Shown here: positions 2,431-23,590 of the stretch, piece by piece | Layout: each line of letters starts with the position of its first letter | How positions within the stretch are numbered: position 1 is the stretch's first letter | From: Escherichia phage FXie-2024a | Length of the DNA stretch: 53,383 bases | Direction: 5' to 3' (one strand) | Sequence record: PP107930.1 | Notes under the pieces: model-generated | Database searches by the model: none | What the model was told of the DNA's origin: nothing | What the model saw: the letters and a program-made list of their open reading frames with translations, nothing else | Made by a program: the position numbers and the translations under genes

Positions 2431-3477
2431 TTAAGCCACTCGTTTCCAGAGGGCGTAGTAGTGAACGGAGTTGGTTACATCAAATGCCGTACCGCTTCCG
2501 GTTGAGGTTGTGGTGTTATTATTTGGGCCACCTGTAGTGAGGGCAGTCCCACCAGTGTTAGCAGCACTAGAGCCACCTGACGTGCCTTTAAAGTTGGGCA
2601 AGTCTACCTGGTGGAAGTGTACCCCACTTTCGCTAGCCGTACCATCCATGTCATGGTAGTGGTCGCCAGCCCACTCAACGTTACGCGTACCCACAGAGCC
2701 AGAGTTGGAGCCAGCAAACAGTACAGGACTGACGTTAGCGTTGTTACCAAACGTAGCTGCGTGGGTGTGGTTCCCGTTAGTTGTGGTACGTCCCGTCACT
2801 GCGTGGGAGTGTGCACCGTTGGGCGTTGAGTTGTGAAGTGGATGCTTGTGGTCTATGGCATGAGTATGCGTCATAGAGTGGGTGTGAGAGGCAATACCGT
2901 GCGTGTGGTTCTGCATTCCGTGAGTGTGTCCAGGAATGTTTGGCACAGCAAGAGTTACAGTATCAGAGCCACCAGTTGAGCCAATCTGACCTTCGGTTGT
3001 ACCAGCTTCGGCAGAGGTAGCAGCACGGACAGAACGACCATCGACAATTTGTTCCCACACAGTTCCTGTGAAGGAGTTGTTTGGGTTGGTGGCATTCTCG
3101 AACTTTAACACAATTCCAATTGGGTAGATGGCGTTGTAGATATTGTTGGCATTAATCAGTTCTCTCCACGGGGTCCAAGTCCGGACCCCAGCTCCCTGGT
3201 CTTGAGAACGAATCCACATACGGAGGTTGCCGAAGTTTGTATATCTCTGTATACAGTTGTCAGAAGTACCGGCATGGGTGAGAAGAACTTCCAAGTTGCC
3301 AGCTTCGGCACCAGCAGGGTATCCATTTGCCACTGTTGCGTTTGCGTTCTGGTTCTGGGGGAACGTACCTACATTATCTCTTCCCCACATATCGTTGATG
3401 TTCTTGGTCCCCAAGGAATCTACACTTTTAGCATAGTGTTCCTGGACCAGCGCATCTAAAGAATAACCTTTAGCCAT
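2431..3477 (-). CDS. Tail fiber protein, distal tip with His-x-His repeats
   Basis: 348 aa; run of HTHGMQNHTHGIASHTHSMTHTHAIDHKH resembling metal-binding HxH motifs of T4-type fiber tips; Gly/Thr-rich C-terminus. Confidence 0.6.
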   Translation of the reverse strand: MAKGYSLDALVQEHYAKSVDSLGTKNINDMWGRDNVGTFPQNQNANATVANGYPAGAEAGNLEVLLTHAGTSDNCIQRYTNFGNLRMWIRSQDQGAGVRTWTPWRELINANNIYNAIYPIGIVLKFENATNPNNSFTGTVWEQIVDGRSVRAATSAEAGTTEGQIGSTGGSDTVTLAVPNIPGHTHGMQNHTHGIASHTHSMTHTHAIDHKHPLHNSTPNGAHSHAVTGRTTTNGNHTHAATFGNNANVSPVLFAGSNSGSVGTRNVEWAGDHYHDMDGTASESGVHFHQVDLPNFKGTSGGSSAANTGGTALTTGGPNNNTTTSTGSGTAFDVTNSVHYYALWKRVA

Positions 3478-3485
3478 TTTGAATC

Positions 3486-4868
3486 CTATAAAGTTGAAAC
3501 TTGCTCATCTGTCAGTGCAGAGTTCCACATTCTGAACGAGCGTAGTGCAAACTCGGAGCTTGTGGCACTCAACAGTGACCAAGCTGATAAAGTAGGTCTG
3601 CGGTTATTTATACCTAATGCTGGCAAAGTATGTTGGATAAGCAGAACACCATCTATGAATATTCTTGCATAACCCCCGGATACAACTACACAGACCCTAA
3701 ACCACTTCCCTGTTCCCGGGGCACCAATCACCTTGTAAGTGTTGTTCAATACACCGTCTTGCCTTCTGTATCGCAGAACTATTCCACCATCGTAGCAAAC
3801 CAAAACCTTAAGAACTTCCATACCAAATCCGCACTGCCAGTTCCCATCTGCTGTTCCAGTGTGTGAGATACGCTGAAAGTCTGCACAAATGGTAAATTTA
3901 CCATTTGTGTCTGCTATCTGAGTGTTATTGTACCAGTTAAACCCGTTGCCTGTGGGGTTCGCATAGGACAGCACCCCACCCAAAGCTTCGTTATAATTTG
4001 GTACGTGATCGAAAGAGTTAAACACGCCATTACCCCGAATAATGTTCAAAGATTTAATCAAGGACATTTCGTATGACGGAGGTACGTGTGCATAGTTTGG
4101 TTCTTGTGCAGCCTTCAAACCTGGGAAGGTAAGCTCTGTAACAATCTTAGACTTACTTGAAGTGGTTCCAGTCTCGGCAAATCCTGTTGTATCATTGATA
4201 CCTATCAGGTAGTTACCATTCTTCAACCACAATCCATCACCGCGCAGTATTTGAGCAGTCTTGGACTCGTTGAAGTATGCAGTTGGCATAGTCACCGGAC
4301 CAGTATATGTCCCGCCAGTAACAGGAACAGCACCAACCTGAACAGCAGTCAGTTTGTGTGGGTTGTTGTAATCTGTTACGTGGGCCTGTACAAGAGCACG
4401 GTAGCTTGCAACTAGTGAGTCCATTTCTGCTCGGTTATATGTTCCAACCTGTGCAGCAGTTACTTGGTGTGGGTTTGCTCGGTTTGCAATATGACTGTTA
4501 ATTGCAGATACAATAGAATCATAGTTTGCACGAGATACCTGAATGGCGCTCGGACTCCATTGAGATGGGTTGGCACTTGGTGCCAGAGTCTTGCTTGGGT
4601 TTGTTACAGTACAAACATAAATAGTTTTGTTTGTTTCGTCCCAAGCCAAACTGCCAACACCGTAAGAAACATCACCACCCCATTCGAAGATTCCACGCTC
4701 TGCCTGAGCAAGCATTGTGGTATCAACTTTGTATTGGAGATAGTTTAAAACTTGGTAGGTTGGTATTTCAGCAACCCAACCTTGGAGATACTTCGCATCT
4801 CCTGGGTCACGTCTGGCTACACTGTTATTTGAAGTCCATACGCGGTTTAGTTTAGGACGTAATGCCAT
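3486..4868 (-). CDS. Tail fiber protein
   Basis: 460 aa; fiber-type repeats (NPHQVTAAQVG, NPHKLTAVQVG, GGTYTGPVTM) shared with the adjacent 381-aa protein. Confidence 0.55.
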   Translation of the reverse strand: MALRPKLNRVWTSNNSVARRDPGDAKYLQGWVAEIPTYQVLNYLQYKVDTTMLAQAERGIFEWGGDVSYGVGSLAWDETNKTIYVCTVTNPSKTLAPSANPSQWSPSAIQVSRANYDSIVSAINSHIANRANPHQVTAAQVGTYNRAEMDSLVASYRALVQAHVTDYNNPHKLTAVQVGAVPVTGGTYTGPVTMPTAYFNESKTAQILRGDGLWLKNGNYLIGINDTTGFAETGTTSSKSKIVTELTFPGLKAAQEPNYAHVPPSYEMSLIKSLNIIRGNGVFNSFDHVPNYNEALGGVLSYANPTGNGFNWYNNTQIADTNGKFTICADFQRISHTGTADGNWQCGFGMEVLKVLVCYDGGIVLRYRRQDGVLNNTYKVIGAPGTGKWFRVCVVVSGGYARIFIDGVLLIQHTLPALGINNRRPTLSAWSLLSATSSEFALRSFRMWNSALTDEQVSTL

Positions 4869-19407: not shown

Positions 19408-20418
19408 TTAGATGCCGGAGTTGATGCTGATTGCAGCCGGATACATGGTCTGGAAGCCAGCGAAACGACCACGGCCAGGGACTTCATAAATCAGACCGTG
19501 CAGCTGAACTGGTTGCCAAGTCAGAGCCAGCGGCTCACGCAGACGGAAAGTACGGTTGCCCATTGCTTGACGGCATACAACTACGAAGCAGTCAGAACCT
19601 GCATCACCATGACCTTTAATCGCGTTCAGACCTTTAATCTTCTCGCGGGAGTTGATGAACTGGTTGTTGTCAATGAAGAACTGACCAATCGTCTTGTCAG
19701 ACTGTACAGAACGTGCAGTGTTGAAGATGTACTGTTCATGTTCAACAGGCATCCAGATTTCGTCAGGACGCATAATCTTCAGGGTAGAAGCATACATTGC
19801 AGACACAGCAGTGGTCAGGTCAGCAATAACTTCGGTCGGAGTCTTGTCAACCCACTTGGTAGAACCGCCAACAGCAGCAGCAGCTACAGTAGCTTTGGTA
19901 ATGTCTGGATTCTCGAAGAAGCCAACGAAGCCGTTAGCAGCATCGCCGTACCATGCAGCAGAGTTTACATACTGTTCGTAACCACGGATAGCAGCGTTTG
20001 CTTTACGAGTTTCCAGCGGCAGACCAGTTACAGCAGCAGCGGCAACTTCGTCAATGTCGTAGTCGAATGCAGTACCAACTGACTTAACAGTTACGCTGTA
20101 TTCTTTACCAGAAATGCTGGACTTCGGCAGGTCGGTTGCACGAGCGTTGATTACCTGTGCTTTACCAACATGGTTGTATGAACGGTAGGTCAGGGTGTTA
20201 ACACCTGGGCCGCCAGTTGTATCTACGCCGAAAGCTGCACGAGCTTCCAGTTCAGGATACAGGGTGTCGTAAGTTTGAGCTTCAATGAACTCAAGCTGAC
20301 GTTGAAAGAACACTGCGTCGTCGTCATTCAAAACAACGGTGCCAGAGTCCTGGATACGGGTGATGGCATCATTCAGTTCAAATTCAGAACCGTCGGCCAG
20401 TTTAATCATCTTTGGCAT
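19408..20418 (-). CDS. Major capsid protein
   Basis: 336 aa; size and position after scaffold and decoration-like genes. Confidence 0.6.
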   Translation of the reverse strand: MPKMIKLADGSEFELNDAITRIQDSGTVVLNDDDAVFFQRQLEFIEAQTYDTLYPELEARAAFGVDTTGGPGVNTLTYRSYNHVGKAQVINARATDLPKSSISGKEYSVTVKSVGTAFDYDIDEVAAAAVTGLPLETRKANAAIRGYEQYVNSAAWYGDAANGFVGFFENPDITKATVAAAAVGGSTKWVDKTPTEVIADLTTAVSAMYASTLKIMRPDEIWMPVEHEQYIFNTARSVQSDKTIGQFFIDNNQFINSREKIKGLNAIKGHGDAGSDCFVVVCRQAMGNRTFRLREPLALTWQPVQLHGLIYEVPGRGRFAGFQTMYPAAISINSGI

Positions 20419-20461
20419 TAAATTATTCCATTAGGCGCAGATTATTCTACGCCAATTAAAC

Positions 20462-21228
20462 TTAAGGGTGCGTAATGGTGATTGCTTTAGTAGCAGTTAC
20501 ACCAGATGCAGTCTTATGGGTTGCTTTGATTGTTGCAGAGGTCGCAGTACCAATCGTCGCAGTTGCAACAGTTACAGTACCATTGGCCGCCACAGAGACT
20601 CCAGTGACCGCTGGGTCAACAGTGAAGTTGTAGTCGCTAGCAACAGAGTTTGCAAACGTAAACAGTTTATCAACAGTTACGGTAGCATTTGTAGTTGAAG
20701 CATCAGCAGTCACAGCCGCCGCTACCGCAGTAACGGTTGGTGCTGGAGGTGGCGTTACGACTTTGGGACGACGTTAATCATGACCGGAACAACTTCACCA
20801 GCAGCAGCCGGATAACGAAGTGCAGTCAGGTTGGTTGCCTTAGTATAGCCAGCACCAACGCCACCGAATTGACCAGTAGCAGATACGCCAATGTTCTTAT
20901 CAGTGATTGCAGTTACCAGTTTGACCATGATTGGACCAGACAGCATAACGCCCAGAGGCCAGCCAGCTTTGATAGCAACAGTGCCATCGCCAGGACGGGT
21001 AGCAGATTCGAGGTTAATCTGGCGCATAGTAATGCCCAGAACAGTACCGTCAGAACCAATACCAGGCTTAACCTGATTGTCAGCAGTACCTTGAACAACG
21101 GCCAGACCAAAGTTTGCCATTTCTACTTCGGCATTGTAGGTCAGACGCTGGGAGTTAGTGGTAGCAAGACCGTACTGCTCACCCGCGTAAGCTGCACCAG
21201 TATTGATAGACCATTCTTGTTTTGGCAT
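20462..21228 (-). CDS. Putative -1 frameshift fusion: decoration-like protein plus Ig-like (Big_2-type) domain
   Basis: Slippery heptamer C_CCA_AAG at 20761..20767 (minus-strand reading). The -1 frame is open from there through a Pro/Ala/Thr linker (KVVTPPPAPTVTAVAAAV) into the 83-aa Ig-like ORF ending at 20462. Confidence 0.6.
20755..21228 (-). CDS. Head decoration-like structural protein (zero-frame product)
   Basis: 157 aa Gly/Ala/Val-rich protein between scaffold and capsid genes; ends with slippery CCCAAAG. Confidence 0.5.
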   Translation of the reverse strand: MPKQEWSINTGAAYAGEQYGLATTNSQRLTYNAEVEMANFGLAVVQGTADNQVKPGIGSDGTVLGITMRQINLESATRPGDGTVAIKAGWPLGVMLSGPIMVKLVTAITDKNIGVSATGQFGGVGAGYTKATNLTALRYPAAAGEVVPVMINVVPKS

Positions 21229-21237
21229 TGTATTACC

Positions 21238-22377
21238 TTATAAAGAGTTGAAGCGTTCTAAACGACGTTTGTTTGCTTCGTCTGAAATAGATACTTTAGG
21301 TTTGCTATCTTCAGCAGCCTTCTTAGCAGAGAACTGCATAGACTGGTTCAGGGCATCACCCAGAGTAATGGAATCGCAGTCTTCAAGTGCTGCATCGAAA
21401 CGAGCAGAGATATAATCTTCACTCTTATCGCTGAAGTCCTTGTCATGCAACTTATTAACTACAGCCAACTTAACTTGTGCATCGGTCTTGCCAGCAAAGT
21501 CTAGTTGTGAGAATTCGTCACCCAGGCGAGCAACATCAATTAACAGTGCAGTACGAGCAACCACACGCTTGTCTACCTCAGCCTGAATAGCTTCATCGGA
21601 TAGGCGTGCAGATTCAGCATCTGCCAGTTTCTGCTCAAGTGCAGTAACCTTGTCAATTGCAGCATCACGTTCTGCTTCAACTACATCAAACGTGGCTTTA
21701 TCTACGATGGCAATCTCTTCACCAGAGTCGCCGATACGAGTTGTTTGAGCACGGCCACGAACTACAATAGCAGCGTGGTTAGGGATGATGCGAACTTTAT
21801 CAAAGTCTGCATCTGCATCTTGGCTTACTGCCAGTTCTGCATTGTGCCCTAAAGAGATTTGGTCAACGCCAGAATCAACTAATCGAATGGCTTGCTCGTC
21901 ATTTAAAACGATTGATGCAGCCAAGAAAGAACCGTCAGCAACTGGACGACCTTCGATAAAGCCTTTCTGCAACTCTTTGTTGTTCTTAATGCTCACATCA
22001 TCTTTCGGATGGCCGATAGTTACCGGAATTGAGCGACAACCTTCGATGGTTGCTTCATCAAATAATACTTCCGGCTTGGTGCGAACACGGCAAATAGATT
22101 CTGGGTCCAAATGCTTAGCAATGTCACCTAATTCTTTTGCTTTGTACAGCATGATGCCAGTACGAGCAATGGTGCATTCTGCAATCATTTCGCCAGAGTC
22201 ACGTAAACGGCGAGTCGTAAGTGTTGCTTTATCCGTTAACAGGACAACTTCACTTACAGTATCTTCGTCGTTAAGCTGAACCAGGTTTTGGTTTTGCTTC
22301 ACTTGCGTTACCCTTTTGTATGTTTGGTGGTTTAGGATTTGGCTTACCAAGGTCACACGTCCCGAACACTCCTGCAT
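21238..22377 (-). CDS. Scaffolding protein or prohead protease (putative)
   Basis: 379 aa acidic, coiled-coil-rich protein between portal and capsid genes; annotated start overlaps the portal end, so the true start is probably internal. Confidence 0.45.
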   Translation of the reverse strand: MQECSGRVTLVSQILNHQTYKRVTQVKQNQNLVQLNDEDTVSEVVLLTDKATLTTRRLRDSGEMIAECTIARTGIMLYKAKELGDIAKHLDPESICRVRTKPEVLFDEATIEGCRSIPVTIGHPKDDVSIKNNKELQKGFIEGRPVADGSFLAASIVLNDEQAIRLVDSGVDQISLGHNAELAVSQDADADFDKVRIIPNHAAIVVRGRAQTTRIGDSGEEIAIVDKATFDVVEAERDAAIDKVTALEQKLADAESARLSDEAIQAEVDKRVVARTALLIDVARLGDEFSQLDFAGKTDAQVKLAVVNKLHDKDFSDKSEDYISARFDAALEDCDSITLGDALNQSMQFSAKKAAEDSKPKVSISDEANKRRLERFNSL

Positions 22378-23590
22378 GGAACATTACATCGTTTGCAACT
22401 TCGGTTGTTATGGTGCCATTGTTAACCAACAGGTCAACAGCGAATGCCAAATCTTTGGCTCGCTTCGCTTTCTCAACATTGGATTCAGGGAAGATGTCCA
22501 ACCATTCATAGTCGTATTCTTCAATGCCAAAGTGCGCCTGAACAATCTTGTCTACCACATCTAAACGAGGGTCGAAGACAGATGTTTGCAAGCCAGTCAA
22601 CAAGTCGATATAGTTTACGAGGTCAGATTCGCCCGTAGCATTCATACCGTCTGGAGATGCAGAAAGGAAACGTGTTGCCGGAATACCTACAGCAGCAGCT
22701 ACAATCTTCAAGTATTCCCAAATCAAGTCTTTCACACCAGATAGTGCAATTGATTTGGTGTCATATTTCTCAGTGTTGTCGAGAATTAAAACATTATAAA
22801 TACTCTTTGCCAGCTTCATGAGTTTGAAGCGTTTCATCACAGCAGCTTCACCTTCCGATGATGTAAGCAGAGATTGTAAACCTTCGACAGTTACCACATC
22901 AATTGTGGCTTCTTGAGCAAGGCTGGCAGCAGCAGCGGCAGTTGTGTAAAACTGGTCAATCGTTTTCAGCAACGGGATAAGTACCGAATCAGAGTACCAC
23001 ATGTTACGTTGAAATTCGAACAGTGGGAGTTCAGTACCCTCGAATCGAAGAAAACGAGTGTAATGGATATAGCCGGGATACCCAGCCAAAGTGTAGAACT
23101 CTGGCAAACCATAGTGAGGACTCAAGGGGTCCAGAACCATAGTCCCTGCGGCAAATAAGCGTGAGCGGTCAATAACTCTCATGGATTTAATACATCCAGT
23201 CTTCAAGTTATCCAGACGTAATGGCGTATCAAGTTTGCCCGTCCCTTTCAGGTCGAGCAGAACAAATGAAGTCCCGTACAGTCTGGCCCATTGATATGCT
23301 TCACGGAACAGTTTACGGATTCGAAGTTTCTTATCCGCTTTACGCCCTTCTTCAGAATCAATATGCCGCCACTTACGCGTCATGTCTTGAGGTATTACAG
23401 TGCAAACCTTCTGGCTTACCCAATCCTCGCGGAAGCGGTTCATCAGTTCGCGATAGTTCGCGTTCTTATTTGAGAAAGTCCACTGGTTAAAAGTAGACTT
23501 ATCCGCTTGACCTCCTAAACCTGTTACAAGGTTCTCAAGGCCATCTGTAACCTTTACGGTTAAATTATTCTTTTTATCTTTGGAAGCCAT
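22271..23590 (-). CDS. Portal protein
   Basis: 439 aa; position between large terminase and scaffold. Confidence 0.55.
   Translation of the reverse strand: MASKDKKNNLTVKVTDGLENLVTGLGGQADKSTFNQWTFSNKNANYRELMNRFREDWVSQKVCTVIPQDMTRKWRHIDSEEGRKADKKLRIRKLFREAYQWARLYGTSFVLLDLKGTGKLDTPLRLDNLKTGCIKSMRVIDRSRLFAAGTMVLDPLSPHYGLPEFYTLAGYPGYIHYTRFLRFEGTELPLFEFQRNMWYSDSVLIPLLKTIDQFYTTAAAAASLAQEATIDVVTVEGLQSLLTSSEGEAAVMKRFKLMKLAKSIYNVLILDNTEKYDTKSIALSGVKDLIWEYLKIVAAAVGIPATRFLSASPDGMNATGESDLVNYIDLLTGLQTSVFDPRLDVVDKIVQAHFGIEEYDYEWLDIFPESNVEKAKRAKDLAFAVDLLVNNGTITTEVANDVMFHAGVFGTCDLGKPNPKPPNIQKGNASEAKPKPGSA

What the first reader, a model, noticed from the sequence alone, without database searches (positions are those of the whole stretch)
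20462..21228. Probable programmed -1 frameshift adds an Ig-like domain to a head protein
The 157-aa head gene ends ...GUC GUC CCA AAG UCG UAA on the mRNA. C_CCA_AAG is a canonical X_XXY_YYZ slippery heptamer. The -1 frame is open from exactly this point (it is closed by a stop just upstream), runs through a Pro/Ala/Thr linker and continues into the 83-aa Ig-like ORF. A GUAACG...CGUUAC inverted repeat follows the slip site. This would give two forms of the protein, one carrying a surface Ig-like domain.
Basis: partly seen in the sequence, partly recalled or inferred. Interest (0 to 1): 0.8.

Follow-up and report, generated by a model that had tools for sequence, protein, structure and literature searches.

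The report
Frameshift adds Ig domain to capsid cement
A phage capsid "cement" gene ends in a slippery sequence that most likely lets some ribosomes slip back one base and add a surface Ig-like domain; this trick is known in other phages but is not annotated in any of the 26 related database records I inspected.

Summary
No experiment confirms it yet.

- **What the window is:** a phiEcoM-GJ1-like phage (family Chaseviridae). The 157-aa gene (20755-21228, minus strand) belongs to Pfam Phage_cement, the trimeric capsid cement proteins.
- **The site:** C_CCA_AAG lies in frame at 20761-20767, one codon before the stop. The -1 frame runs from there for 99 codons into a confidently modelled Ig-like domain.
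- **Conservation:** 30 related loci carry an extension. Of these, 27 have the identical in-frame CCCAAAG, one has C_CCA_AAA, one has G_GGA_AAA, and one has an imperfect G_GCA_AAG. All 13 relatives without an extension lack any in-frame heptamer.
- **Coding signal:** the extension evolves as protein in the -1 frame (dN/dS about 0.12). It contains no ATG, and in several phages no GTG or TTG until mid-domain.
- **Cassette exchange:** the Ig module has been swapped, duplicated or deleted behind the fixed slip site, and it always stays in the -1 frame.
- **What failed:** No conserved stimulator was found, so efficiency is unknown.

Verdict: a new, unannotated member of a known kind.

The parts
20755..21228 (-). 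Zero-frame gene for the capsid cement/decoration protein (157 aa, 16.2 kDa)
   Evidence: ORF listed. Pfam PF22758 Phage_cement scores 62.3 bits against a cut-off of 27, and PHROG 563 'virion structural protein' matches. It lies between the DUF2213 protease/scaffold gene and the PF09950 major capsid gene. The phage 4HA13 orthologue had 100% coverage in virion LC-MS/MS (PMC9699118 Table S2).
20761..20767 (-). Slippery heptamer C_CCA_AAG in the 0-frame register (P-site CCA, A-site AAG)
   Evidence: The identical heptamer is in frame in 27 of 30 extension-bearing relatives. The third positions of CCA and AAG are invariant in 20 genomes, whereas only 10 of 155 codons have an invariant third base. 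The preceding codon always ends in C although it encodes V, L, A, G or I. This is the most efficient heptamer measured in E. coli (PMC4066793; PMC5009743).
20755..20757 (-). Zero-frame stop codon UAA, one codon after the heptamer
   Evidence: In all 27 CCCAAAG loci the 0-frame stop lies 0 or 1 codon after the heptamer. A stimulatory role is inferred, not tested.
20462..20761 (-). The -1 frame extension: 99 codons plus stop. With the cement part it gives a predicted 255-aa, 25.7-kDa transframe product, encoded by 21228..20761 (zero frame) joined to 20761..20462 (-1 frame) on the minus strand, base 20761 being read twice
   Evidence: dN/dS is about 0.12. Variable sites by codon position are 42/39/93 of 96 codons in the -1 frame.
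20714..20761 (-). Pro/Ala/Thr-rich linker (VVTPPPAPTVTAVAAA) upstream of the first possible start codon
   Evidence: The linker is conserved as protein (..VTPPPAPTV[TS]AVA..). Third-position variation is in excess: 9/9/17 of 19 codons. The -1 frame is closed 6 nt upstream of the heptamer. Ribosomes therefore have to enter this frame within about 8 codons around the heptamer.
20465..20737 (-). Ig-like beta-sandwich domain (extension residues about 9-99)
   Evidence: AlphaFold2 model with mean pLDDT 95 and nine strands. Foldseek hits are the T5 pb6 Ig-like domain (E 7.5e-4, TM 0.61), the phi29 gp8 Ig domain and Rib domains. PHROG 13745 'Ig domain containing protein' matches at E 5e-6.
20462..20713 (-). 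It is the 3' part of the extension, not a conserved independent gene
   Evidence: The GTG is absent at this position in most relatives. The first GTG/TTG falls at extension codons 51-79 in 2KOFFS, flopper, 4HA13, phiA050, Aioli, SNUABM27 and L032, and there is no ATG anywhere.
20730..20758 (-). It is present but not supported as a stimulator
   Evidence: -2.6 kcal/mol, 2-nt spacer, absent in 19 of 19 relatives. RNAalifold finds no conserved structure downstream of the slip site.
20434..20453 (-). GC-rich hairpin between the extension stop and the major capsid gene start. It marks the 3' boundary of the exchangeable cassette
   Evidence: A hairpin is present at the same place in nearly all relatives, with different stem sequences that remain paired. 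Its function was not tested.

Best explanation
**Proposed mechanism.** The 157-aa gene encodes the trimeric capsid cement (decoration) protein of a Chaseviridae phage.

1. Most ribosomes terminate at UAA (20755-20757) and make the 16.2-kDa cement protein.
2. A minority slip back one base while decoding C_CCA_AAG. The tRNA-Pro re-pairs from CCA to CCC, and the tRNA-Lys re-pairs from AAG to AAA.
3. These ribosomes read on through a Pro/Ala/Thr linker and a 90-residue Ig-like domain. The result is a 25.7-kDa cement-Ig fusion that co-assembles into the capsid and displays the Ig-like domain on its surface.

**Shown here:**
- the identity of the gene family;
- the site, its register and its conservation;
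- the coding status of the -1 frame;
- the lack of a conserved start codon;
- the Ig-like fold (by model).

**Inferred:**
- that slippage really occurs, and at what rate (perhaps below 1% to a few per cent, since no stimulator was found beyond the nearby stop codon);
- that the fusion is incorporated into virions;
- that the domain acts as a weak surface adhesin, as proposed for other phage Ig-like domains.
For: 1. **The heptamer.** It is a canonical heptamer in the correct register at the gene's end. C_CCA_AAG is the most shift-prone heptamer measured in E. coli: 54% with a strong stimulator (PMC4066793) and described as 'highly shift-prone' (PMC5009743).
2. **Conservation.** Of 30 extension-bearing loci, 27 have the identical in-frame CCCAAAG. 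One has C_CCA_AAA (L033) and one 40%-identical homologue has G_GGA_AAA (L037). These sequences have saturated synonymous divergence (dS above 1).
3. **Synonymous constraint.** Only 10 of 155 codons keep an invariant third base across 20 genomes. CCA and AAG are two of them, and the codon before always ends in C whatever amino acid it encodes.
4. **Natural controls.** All 13 relatives with no extension lack any in-frame heptamer. L047 keeps Pro-Lys but encodes it as CCT AAA.
5. **Coding signature.** The extension has dN/dS about 0.12 in the -1 frame, and this includes the linker that precedes any start codon.
6. **No independent start.** There is no ATG in any extension. The first GTG/TTG sits at non-conserved positions, mid-domain in at least seven phages.
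7. **Cassette exchange.** Three pairs of phages are 95-100% identical up to the heptamer and again from the capsid gene, but only 35-55% identical in between. At least two unrelated Ig families are involved. There is also a tandem duplication (flopper) and an internal deletion (PYps3T). The -1 relationship is kept in every case.
8. **No in-frame fusions.** None of the 80 closest protein clusters is an in-frame fusion; nearly all are about 157 aa, and 64 of 80 end in PK(x).
9. **Virion protein.** The cement orthologue is an abundant virion protein in phage 4HA13.
10. **Precedent.** Ig-like C-terminal domains added by frameshifting are established in phages T3, A2, A118, A500 and PSA.
Against: - No transframe protein or junction peptide has been observed. 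The 4HA13 proteome table lists only the 16.5-kDa form, and the paper does not mention frameshifting.
- No conserved stimulatory RNA structure or upstream Shine-Dalgarno-like element was found.
- In reporter assays, heptamers without a stimulator gave only 2-10 times a background of about 0.05%. Efficiency could therefore be very low.
- In this particular genome, a GTG (20713) preceded by GGCGG has a predicted anti-SD pairing of -5.0 kcal/mol, no weaker than real genes here. Some independent initiation cannot be excluded for this phage alone.
- One relative (Myduc) has an imperfect site, G_GCA_AAG.
- The sequences compared are phylogenetically related, so the counts are not independent events.
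Confidence: 0.88

Rival explanations
1. The Ig-like ORF is an independent small gene. It would be translated from its own GTG (20713) or by termination-reinitiation after the cement gene's UAA, giving a free 83-aa Ig-like protein that binds the capsid as Hoc does.
For: The window has an in-frame GTG with a GGCGG motif upstream. Its predicted anti-SD pairing is -5.0 kcal/mol, comparable to real genes in this phage. Several GenBank records annotate separate small ORFs here, such as 'Ig domain containing protein'.
Against: - The annotated starts differ from phage to phage, giving products of 43 to 90 aa.
- No extension contains an ATG.
- In phiA050, Aioli, SNUABM27, 2KOFFS, flopper, 4HA13 and L032 the first GTG/TTG lies at codons 51-79, inside the domain.
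- The linker upstream of any start is conserved as protein.
- This model does not explain why CCCAAAG is invariant at synonymous sites, or why it disappears whenever the extension is absent.
Confidence: 0.05
2. The frame change happens by a different recoding route at the same place. Candidates are single-tRNA P-site slippage of tRNA-Lys on A_AAG while the ribosome waits at the adjacent stop codon, or transcriptional slippage by RNA polymerase, rather than classical tandem slippage.
For: The 0-frame stop is always 0-1 codon after the heptamer. Myduc has only A_AAG plus an immediate TAA with an imperfect P-site codon. A_AAG is the best tetramer motif in E. coli.
Against: The strict conservation of the first four bases (NNC CCA), including the wobble base of a variable preceding codon, argues that P-site re-pairing matters, which points to tandem slippage. 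By established knowledge of transcriptional slippage, runs of three A or three C are far too short for it.
Confidence: 0.06
3. The downstream ORF is a non-expressed remnant, or the frame difference is a sequencing or assembly artefact of an originally in-frame fusion.
For: PYps3T-type phages carry a truncated 50-aa remnant, which shows the domain is dispensable. No expression data exist.
Against: The same -1 arrangement is present in 30 independently sequenced genomes and contigs. Purifying selection is strong, with dN/dS about 0.12 at dS above 1. No in-frame fusion appears among the 80 closest homologue clusters.
Confidence: 0.01

Closest known systems
Lactobacillus phage A2 major head protein gp5A/gp5B, and phage T3 capsid protein 10A/10B
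   Same: A -1 ribosomal frameshift near the 3' end of a head gene yields a C-terminally extended second form bearing an Ig-like domain, so both forms come from one gene (PMC5009743).
   Different: In those phages the extended protein is the major capsid protein itself. Here it is the separate trimeric cement/decoration protein. From memory only, not checked here: A2 uses C_CCA_AAA with a downstream stem-loop. No conserved stimulator was found here.
Listeria phages A118/A500 (-1) and PSA (+1) capsid and tail proteins, the class described by Fraser et al. as Ig-like domains added by frameshifting
   Same: Ig-like domains are appended out of frame to virion structural proteins. The domains are thought to move by non-homologous recombination, with some landing out of frame. 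The cassette exchange seen here fits that picture.
   Different: The carrier protein and phage family differ. Here one slip site is retained across nearly all extension-bearing relatives examined while different Ig modules are exchanged behind it.
Phage lambda G/GT tail assembly chaperone frameshift (G_GGA_AAG)
   Same: It uses an X_XXA_AAG heptamer exploiting the shift-prone E. coli tRNA-Lys and produces a minor C-terminally extended product. The distant homologue L037 uses G_GGA_AAA.
   Different: Lambda's product is a tail assembly chaperone that is not in the virion. This product is predicted to be a structural surface protein.
Pam3 gp6 and E217 gp24 cement proteins (Pfam PF22758)
   Same: The N-terminal 157 aa match this family, and there is a Foldseek hit to the Pam3 capsid chain 8hdt_G. 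In those phages the cement protein forms trimers at the threefold and quasi-threefold axes. Pam3 has 140 trimers on a T=7 capsid holding a 54.5-kb genome, close to the genome sizes of this window's relatives.
   Different: Neither structural paper's passages on these proteins mention a frameshift or an Ig extension.
T4 Hoc and other capsid decoration proteins with in-frame Ig-like domains
   Same: They display Ig-like domains on the capsid surface that are dispensable for growth. The Orgeat-type extension matches Hoc-like PHROGs.
   Different: Hoc is an independent gene with in-frame domains and its own capsid-binding domain. Here the Ig domain borrows the cement protein as its anchor through recoding.

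Membership tests
Programmed -1 ribosomal frameshift site (tandem slippage, X_XXY_YYZ) | Slippery heptamer in the zero-frame register X_XXY_YYZ | tested here: met
   C_CCA_AAG lies at 20761-20767 in register. It is the most efficient heptamer in E. coli.
Programmed -1 ribosomal frameshift site (tandem slippage, X_XXY_YYZ) | The -1 ORF is open from the site and evolves as coding sequence | tested here: met
   99 codons are open. dN/dS is about 0.12, with a third-position excess of 93 against 42 and 39.
Programmed -1 ribosomal frameshift site (tandem slippage, X_XXY_YYZ) | The heptamer is conserved at synonymous positions across diverged relatives and is absent where no transframe ORF exists | tested here: met
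   29 of 30 extension-bearing loci have a perfect heptamer, and 0 of 13 loci without an extension do.
Programmed -1 ribosomal frameshift site (tandem slippage, X_XXY_YYZ) | A stimulatory element: a downstream stem-loop or pseudoknot at 5-9 nt, or an upstream SD-like sequence | tested here: inconclusive
RNAalifold finds no conserved structure. There is no Rfam match. Some individual genomes have local hairpins at 6-9 nt, for example Papaline and PYps3T. A stop codon 0-1 codon downstream is conserved. Pseudoknots were not searched for.
Programmed -1 ribosomal frameshift site (tandem slippage, X_XXY_YYZ) | The transframe protein is detected experimentally | not testable with these tools
   The only virion proteome found (4HA13) lists the short form only. 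The transframe sequence does not appear in its table of proteins with at least 50% coverage, and nothing shows it was searched.
Phage structural proteins with an Ig-like C-terminal domain added by frameshifting | The C-terminal extension adopts an Ig-like beta-sandwich fold | tested here: met
   The model has pLDDT 95. Foldseek hits include T5 pb6, phi29 gp8, Rib and metazoan Ig domains. Pfam Ig_2 scores above its cut-off for the L025-type extension. PHROG 13745 also matches.
Phage structural proteins with an Ig-like C-terminal domain added by frameshifting | The carrier is a virion structural protein | tested here: met
   Pfam Phage_cement matches. The orthologue was found in purified 4HA13 virions.
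Pfam PF22758 Phage_cement (E217 gp24 / Pam3 gp6) | Profile match above the curated threshold over the full length | tested here: met
   62.3 bits against a cut-off of 27, covering residues 4-152 of 157. All 79 full-length homologue clusters carry PF22758.
Pfam PF22758 Phage_cement (E217 gp24 / Pam3 gp6) | Beta-tulip fold, with trimers at the capsid threefold axes | tested here: inconclusive
   The model of the N-terminal part had low confidence (pLDDT below 50 for residues 1-97). There is a weak Foldseek hit to the Pam3 capsid chain. Profile and sequence searches of the PDB found no relevant match: none with the profile and only an unrelated ribosomal protein at E 0.046 with the single sequence.
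Independent Hoc-like decoration gene | Its own conserved start codon and ribosome-binding site | tested here: not met
   There is no ATG. GTG/TTG positions are not conserved and often fall mid-domain.

The most novel reading that the evidence does not exclude
The slip site plus the proline-rich linker may act as a fixed 'docking port' for interchangeable surface-display cassettes. Different Ig-like modules would be swapped by recombination between the heptamer and the hairpin in front of the capsid gene. The frameshift, tuned only by the heptamer and the adjacent stop codon with no RNA stimulator, would keep display sub-stoichiometric, so that cement trimers still pack and each capsid carries only a few adhesin domains. 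If so, this family would be a natural system for asking why phages keep Ig domains out of frame, and how display dosage affects fitness or host and mucus adherence.
Probability: 0.35. Interest if true: 0.6.

Novelty: new member of a known kind. Interest (0 to 1): 0.45.

Why it matters
- **Annotation.** None of the 26 database records I inspected annotates this recoding event. They leave the region blank or call arbitrary small 'hypothetical' ORFs. A joined CDS would correct the annotation of a virion protein across most of the subfamily Cleopatravirinae.
- **Biology.** This extends frameshift-appended Ig-like domains to the cement/decoration class of capsid proteins. It also offers an unusually clean natural experiment: the same slip site carries exchanged, duplicated, truncated or absent domains in close relatives. 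That set could be used to test what these domains do and why their dosage is set by recoding.
- **Applications.** These are candidate therapeutic and biocontrol phages of E. coli, Erwinia, Yersinia and Pectobacterium. Their surface display domains may influence adherence and pharmacology.

Tried and rejected
- **Downstream stimulator.** A small hairpin about 24 nt downstream (ACNGU...GCNGU) looked as if it covaried. It is mostly forced by the Thr-Val-x-Ala-Val codons and is broken in several phages, so I dropped it.
- **Shine-Dalgarno strength.** This did not separate the GTG from real starts, because genuine genes in this phage also pair weakly.
- **Pfam on the 255-aa fusion.** It returned nothing. 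The two parts had to be searched separately.
- **PDB sequence and profile searches.** They found no solved homologue.
- **Full-length structure model.** It was poor for the N-terminal half, so only the extension model was used for fold assignment.
- **Literature.** Searches on Chaseviridae or phiEcoM-GJ1 with 'frameshift', and on cement protein with frameshift and Ig-like, found no prior report of this site. The original phiEcoM-GJ1 paper is not held in the library.
- **Read-through and +1 shifting.** Read-through of the UAA is excluded because the zero frame stops again after 10 codons. The +1 frame is open for only about 24 codons.

Full report
**1. What the window is**

The region sits in the head-gene module of a phage on the minus strand. 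The gene order is:
- portal (22271-23590, Pfam Phage_portal_3);
- a DUF2213 protease/scaffold gene (ORF 21238-22377);
- the 157-aa gene (20755-21228);
- the 83-aa ORF (20462-20713);
- a PF09950 major capsid gene (19408-20418).

The DNA is 86-92% identical to Escherichia phages Mangalitsa, MLP1 and phiEcoM-GJ1 (family Chaseviridae, genus Carltongylesvirus).

**2. Checking the observation**

The mRNA reads ...AUU AAC GUC GUC CCA AAG UCG UAA. CCCAAAG occupies 20761-20767 in the C_CCA_AAG register, and the stop is at 20755-20757.

The -1 frame has a UAA two codons before the heptamer. It is then open for 99 codons, reading VVTPPPAPTVTAVAAAV and continuing through the 83-aa ORF to the stop at 20462-20464. 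The predicted products are 16.2 and 25.7 kDa.

The heptamer on its own is not unusual: there are 5 copies in the window against 6.9 expected. Only this copy lies in the reading frame of a real gene with a long -1 ORF behind it.

It gives only -2.6 kcal/mol, starts 2 nt after the heptamer, and is absent from all 19 GenBank relatives examined.

**3. What the two parts are**

The 157-aa protein matches Pfam PF22758 Phage_cement (E217 gp24 / Pam3 gp6) at 62.3 bits against a cut-off of 27. It also matches PHROG 563, 'virion structural protein'.

In Pam3 and E217 these proteins form beta-tulip trimers at the threefold and quasi-threefold axes. Pam3 has 140 trimers on a T=7 capsid that packages 54.5 kb, a genome size similar to the phages here. 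The orthologue in phage 4HA13 was recovered with 100% coverage from CsCl-purified virions (PMC9699118 Table S2).

The extension, modelled alone from an 18-sequence alignment, gives a nine-strand beta-sandwich with mean pLDDT 95. Its best structural matches are:
- the Ig-like domain of the T5 tail tube protein pb6 (E 7.5e-4, TM 0.61);
- the Ig-like domain of the phi29 capsid protein;
- Rib domains;
- many metazoan Ig domains.

It also matches PHROG 13745, 'Ig domain containing protein'. 'Ig-like' is therefore supported by fold, although no Pfam Ig family matches this particular sequence.

**4. Comparative test of the frameshift**

I fetched the homologous locus from 19 GenBank Chaseviridae, 10 further IMG/VR contigs, 7 more distant family members and 6 metagenomic contigs.

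*Loci with an extension.* Thirty loci (this window plus 29 relatives) have an ORF between the cement gene and the capsid gene. [quoted passage not shown]
- 27 have the identical CCCAAAG in the C_CCA_AAG register, with the zero-frame stop 0 or 1 codon later.
- L033 has C_CCA_AAA.
- L037, whose cement protein is only 40% identical, has G_GGA_AAA five codons before its stop, leading into a different Ig/PKD-like domain.
- Proteus phage Myduc has an imperfect G_GCA_AAG followed directly by UAA.

*Loci without an extension.* All 13 relatives in which the capsid gene follows the cement gene directly lack any in-frame X_XXY_YYZ in their last 30 codons. L047 still ends ...Leu-Pro-Lys-Ala... but encodes it as CUG CCU AAA. 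This shows that the synonymous constraint disappears together with the extension.

*Synonymous-site constraint.* Across the 20 sequences of the first set (this window plus its 19 GenBank relatives), only 10 of 155 aligned codons keep an invariant third base, and three of those are Met codons. CCA and AAG are two of the ten. The codon before them always ends in C although it encodes Val, Leu, Ala, Gly or Ile.

**5. The -1 frame is translated, and not from its own start**

- Among 11 phages sharing this domain type, variable sites by codon position are 42/39/93 of 96 codons. Median dN/dS is 0.12 at dS about 1.3.
- The Pro-rich linker shows the same pattern: 9/9/17 of 19 codons.
- No extension contains an ATG.
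- The first GTG or TTG lies at different positions. It falls at codons 51-79, inside the domain, in 2KOFFS, flopper, 4HA13, phiA050, Aioli, SNUABM27 and L032.
- In the window the -1 frame is closed 6 nt upstream of the heptamer. Entry into the frame therefore has to occur within roughly eight codons that include the heptamer.
- GenBank annotators chose inconsistent starts (products of 43 to 90 aa) or left the region empty. None of the 26 records inspected annotates a joined CDS.

**6. The Ig module is an exchangeable cassette behind a fixed slip site**

Three pairs were compared: Aioli/EaPF9, Mauresque/Papaline and SSEM1/Orgeat. Each pair is mostly 90-100% identical through the cement gene up to the heptamer (one pair dips to about 72% in one stretch). 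Identity drops to about 25-55% for roughly 340 nt and returns to 95-100% at the capsid gene.

The modules belong to at least two unrelated Ig families. One is a D-x-LF family with three diverged subtypes. The other is an I-set/Hoc-like family that passes the Pfam Ig_2 threshold.

Flopper carries two tandem copies, and PYps3T carries an internally deleted 50-aa remnant. Several close relatives have lost the module altogether.

Among the 80 closest protein clusters in a database of 5.8 billion sequences, none is an in-frame fusion, and 64 end in Pro-Lys plus at most one residue. A single-base indel would create a constitutive fusion, yet none was seen. This suggests that the two-product arrangement itself is under selection. 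That step is inference.

**7. Mechanism and its weak point**

C_CC.A_AA.G is the most efficient -1 heptamer measured in E. coli, at 54% with the IS3 pseudoknot. Heptamers without stimulators gave only 2-10 times a background of about 0.05% in that reporter (PMC4066793).

I found no conserved stimulator:
- RNAalifold returns an empty consensus.
- Synonymous sites downstream are nearly all variable.
- There is no SD-like sequence upstream in the aligned sequences.
- Rfam gives nothing.

Some individual genomes have local hairpins 6-9 nt downstream. The only conserved flanking feature is the zero-frame stop codon 0-1 codon after the site. Established work on 'shifty stops' makes this a plausible but untested enhancer.

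Efficiency is therefore unknown. If it lies between 0.5% and 5%, and the capsid carries about 420 cement subunits as in Pam3, a virion would display roughly 2-20 Ig domains. This figure is an inference built on two assumptions.

**8. Rival explanations**

- *Independent initiation at GTG 20713.* It cannot be excluded for this genome alone, because its SD-like pairing (-5.0 kcal/mol) is no worse than that of real genes. It does not explain the family-wide data.
- *Single-tRNA slippage at A_AAG next to the stop.* This is a variant of the same idea. The conservation of NNC CCA argues for tandem slippage.
- *Artefact or pseudogene.* These are excluded by 30 independent sequences and by purifying selection.

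**9. Comparison with what is known**

Frameshift-appended Ig-like domains on phage structural proteins are well established: T3 10B, A2, A118/A500 and PSA. They have been explained by promiscuous recombination of Ig modules (PMC5009743).

This case is the same kind of feature. It differs in three ways:
- The carrier is a cement/decoration protein rather than a major capsid or tail protein.
- The slip site is conserved across nearly all extension-bearing relatives examined while the modules are exchanged behind it.
- No RNA stimulator is apparent.

I found no prior report for Chaseviridae in the searchable literature, but the library is incomplete.

**10. Verdict**

This is a new member of a known kind. 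It has moderate interest, and its main practical value is in correcting annotation and in serving as a natural test system.

Noticed in passing
window 20434-20453 (minus strand); homologous positions in L001-L019: A GC-rich hairpin without a U-tract sits between the extension stop and the major capsid gene start in nearly all relatives. The stem sequences differ but stay paired (GGCGUAG/CUGCGCC, GGCGCAA/UUGCGCC, GGUGUGGC/GUCACACC, CCGGGUGAC/GUUGCCCGG). Similar hairpins follow the cement gene in relatives without the extension. It could be an RNA processing or stability element, or an attenuator, in front of the capsid gene.
   Followed up: partly
L013 vs L019, L005 vs L014, L009 vs L015 (heptamer to capsid gene start): There are sharp recombination breakpoints. 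Identity of about 90-100% immediately upstream of the heptamer drops to about 25-55% right after it and recovers at the capsid gene. The Ig module has therefore been exchanged as a cassette at least three times among close relatives.
   Followed up: yes
L006 (Escherichia phage flopper) 1174-1761; also vB_EcoM_JL1: The extension is duplicated in tandem. It has two Ig-like domains, each preceded by a PPAPTVSAV linker, for 193 aa in total, still in the -1 frame behind CCCAAAG.
   Followed up: partly
L007 (Yersinia phage PYps3T) 1474-1632; PYps4T and PYps16T: An internal deletion leaves a 50-aa remnant of the extension while the heptamer stays intact. The domain therefore appears dispensable for these isolates.
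   Followed up: partly
L039 (Proteus phage Myduc) about 1462-1806: The site is imperfect: G_GCA_AAG followed directly by UAA, with a 110-aa Ig-like extension in the -1 frame that overlaps the capsid gene start. The depositors annotated ribosome-binding sites for the flanking genes but none for the downstream ORF.
   Followed up: partly
L037 (IMG/VR contig 3300036796_000019) about 1950-2297: A cement homologue only 40% identical uses a different heptamer, G_GGA_AAA, five codons before its stop. It leads into a PKD/He_PIG-like domain. This points to either independent origin or long persistence of the same strategy.
   Followed up: partly
window 21238-22377 (minus strand): The longest ORF for the DUF2213 protease/scaffold gene (379 aa) overlaps the portal gene by 107 nt, and its ATG has essentially no SD pairing (-0.6 kcal/mol). 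Relatives annotate a 355-aa version that starts further downstream, so the true start is probably internal.
   Followed up: no
PP952070.1: A record named 'Staphylococcus phage Pel53' (host Staphylococcus hyicus) is 86.5% identical over this 3-kb head region to these E. coli/Yersinia phages. The host label looks doubtful.
   Followed up: no
L003 (Shigella phage vB_Shi_2KOFFS) 2495-3501: The major capsid gene is annotated as two adjacent CDSs (2495-3094 and 3112-3501). It is a single gene in all relatives, so this is probably a sequencing error or a genuine disruption.
   Followed up: no
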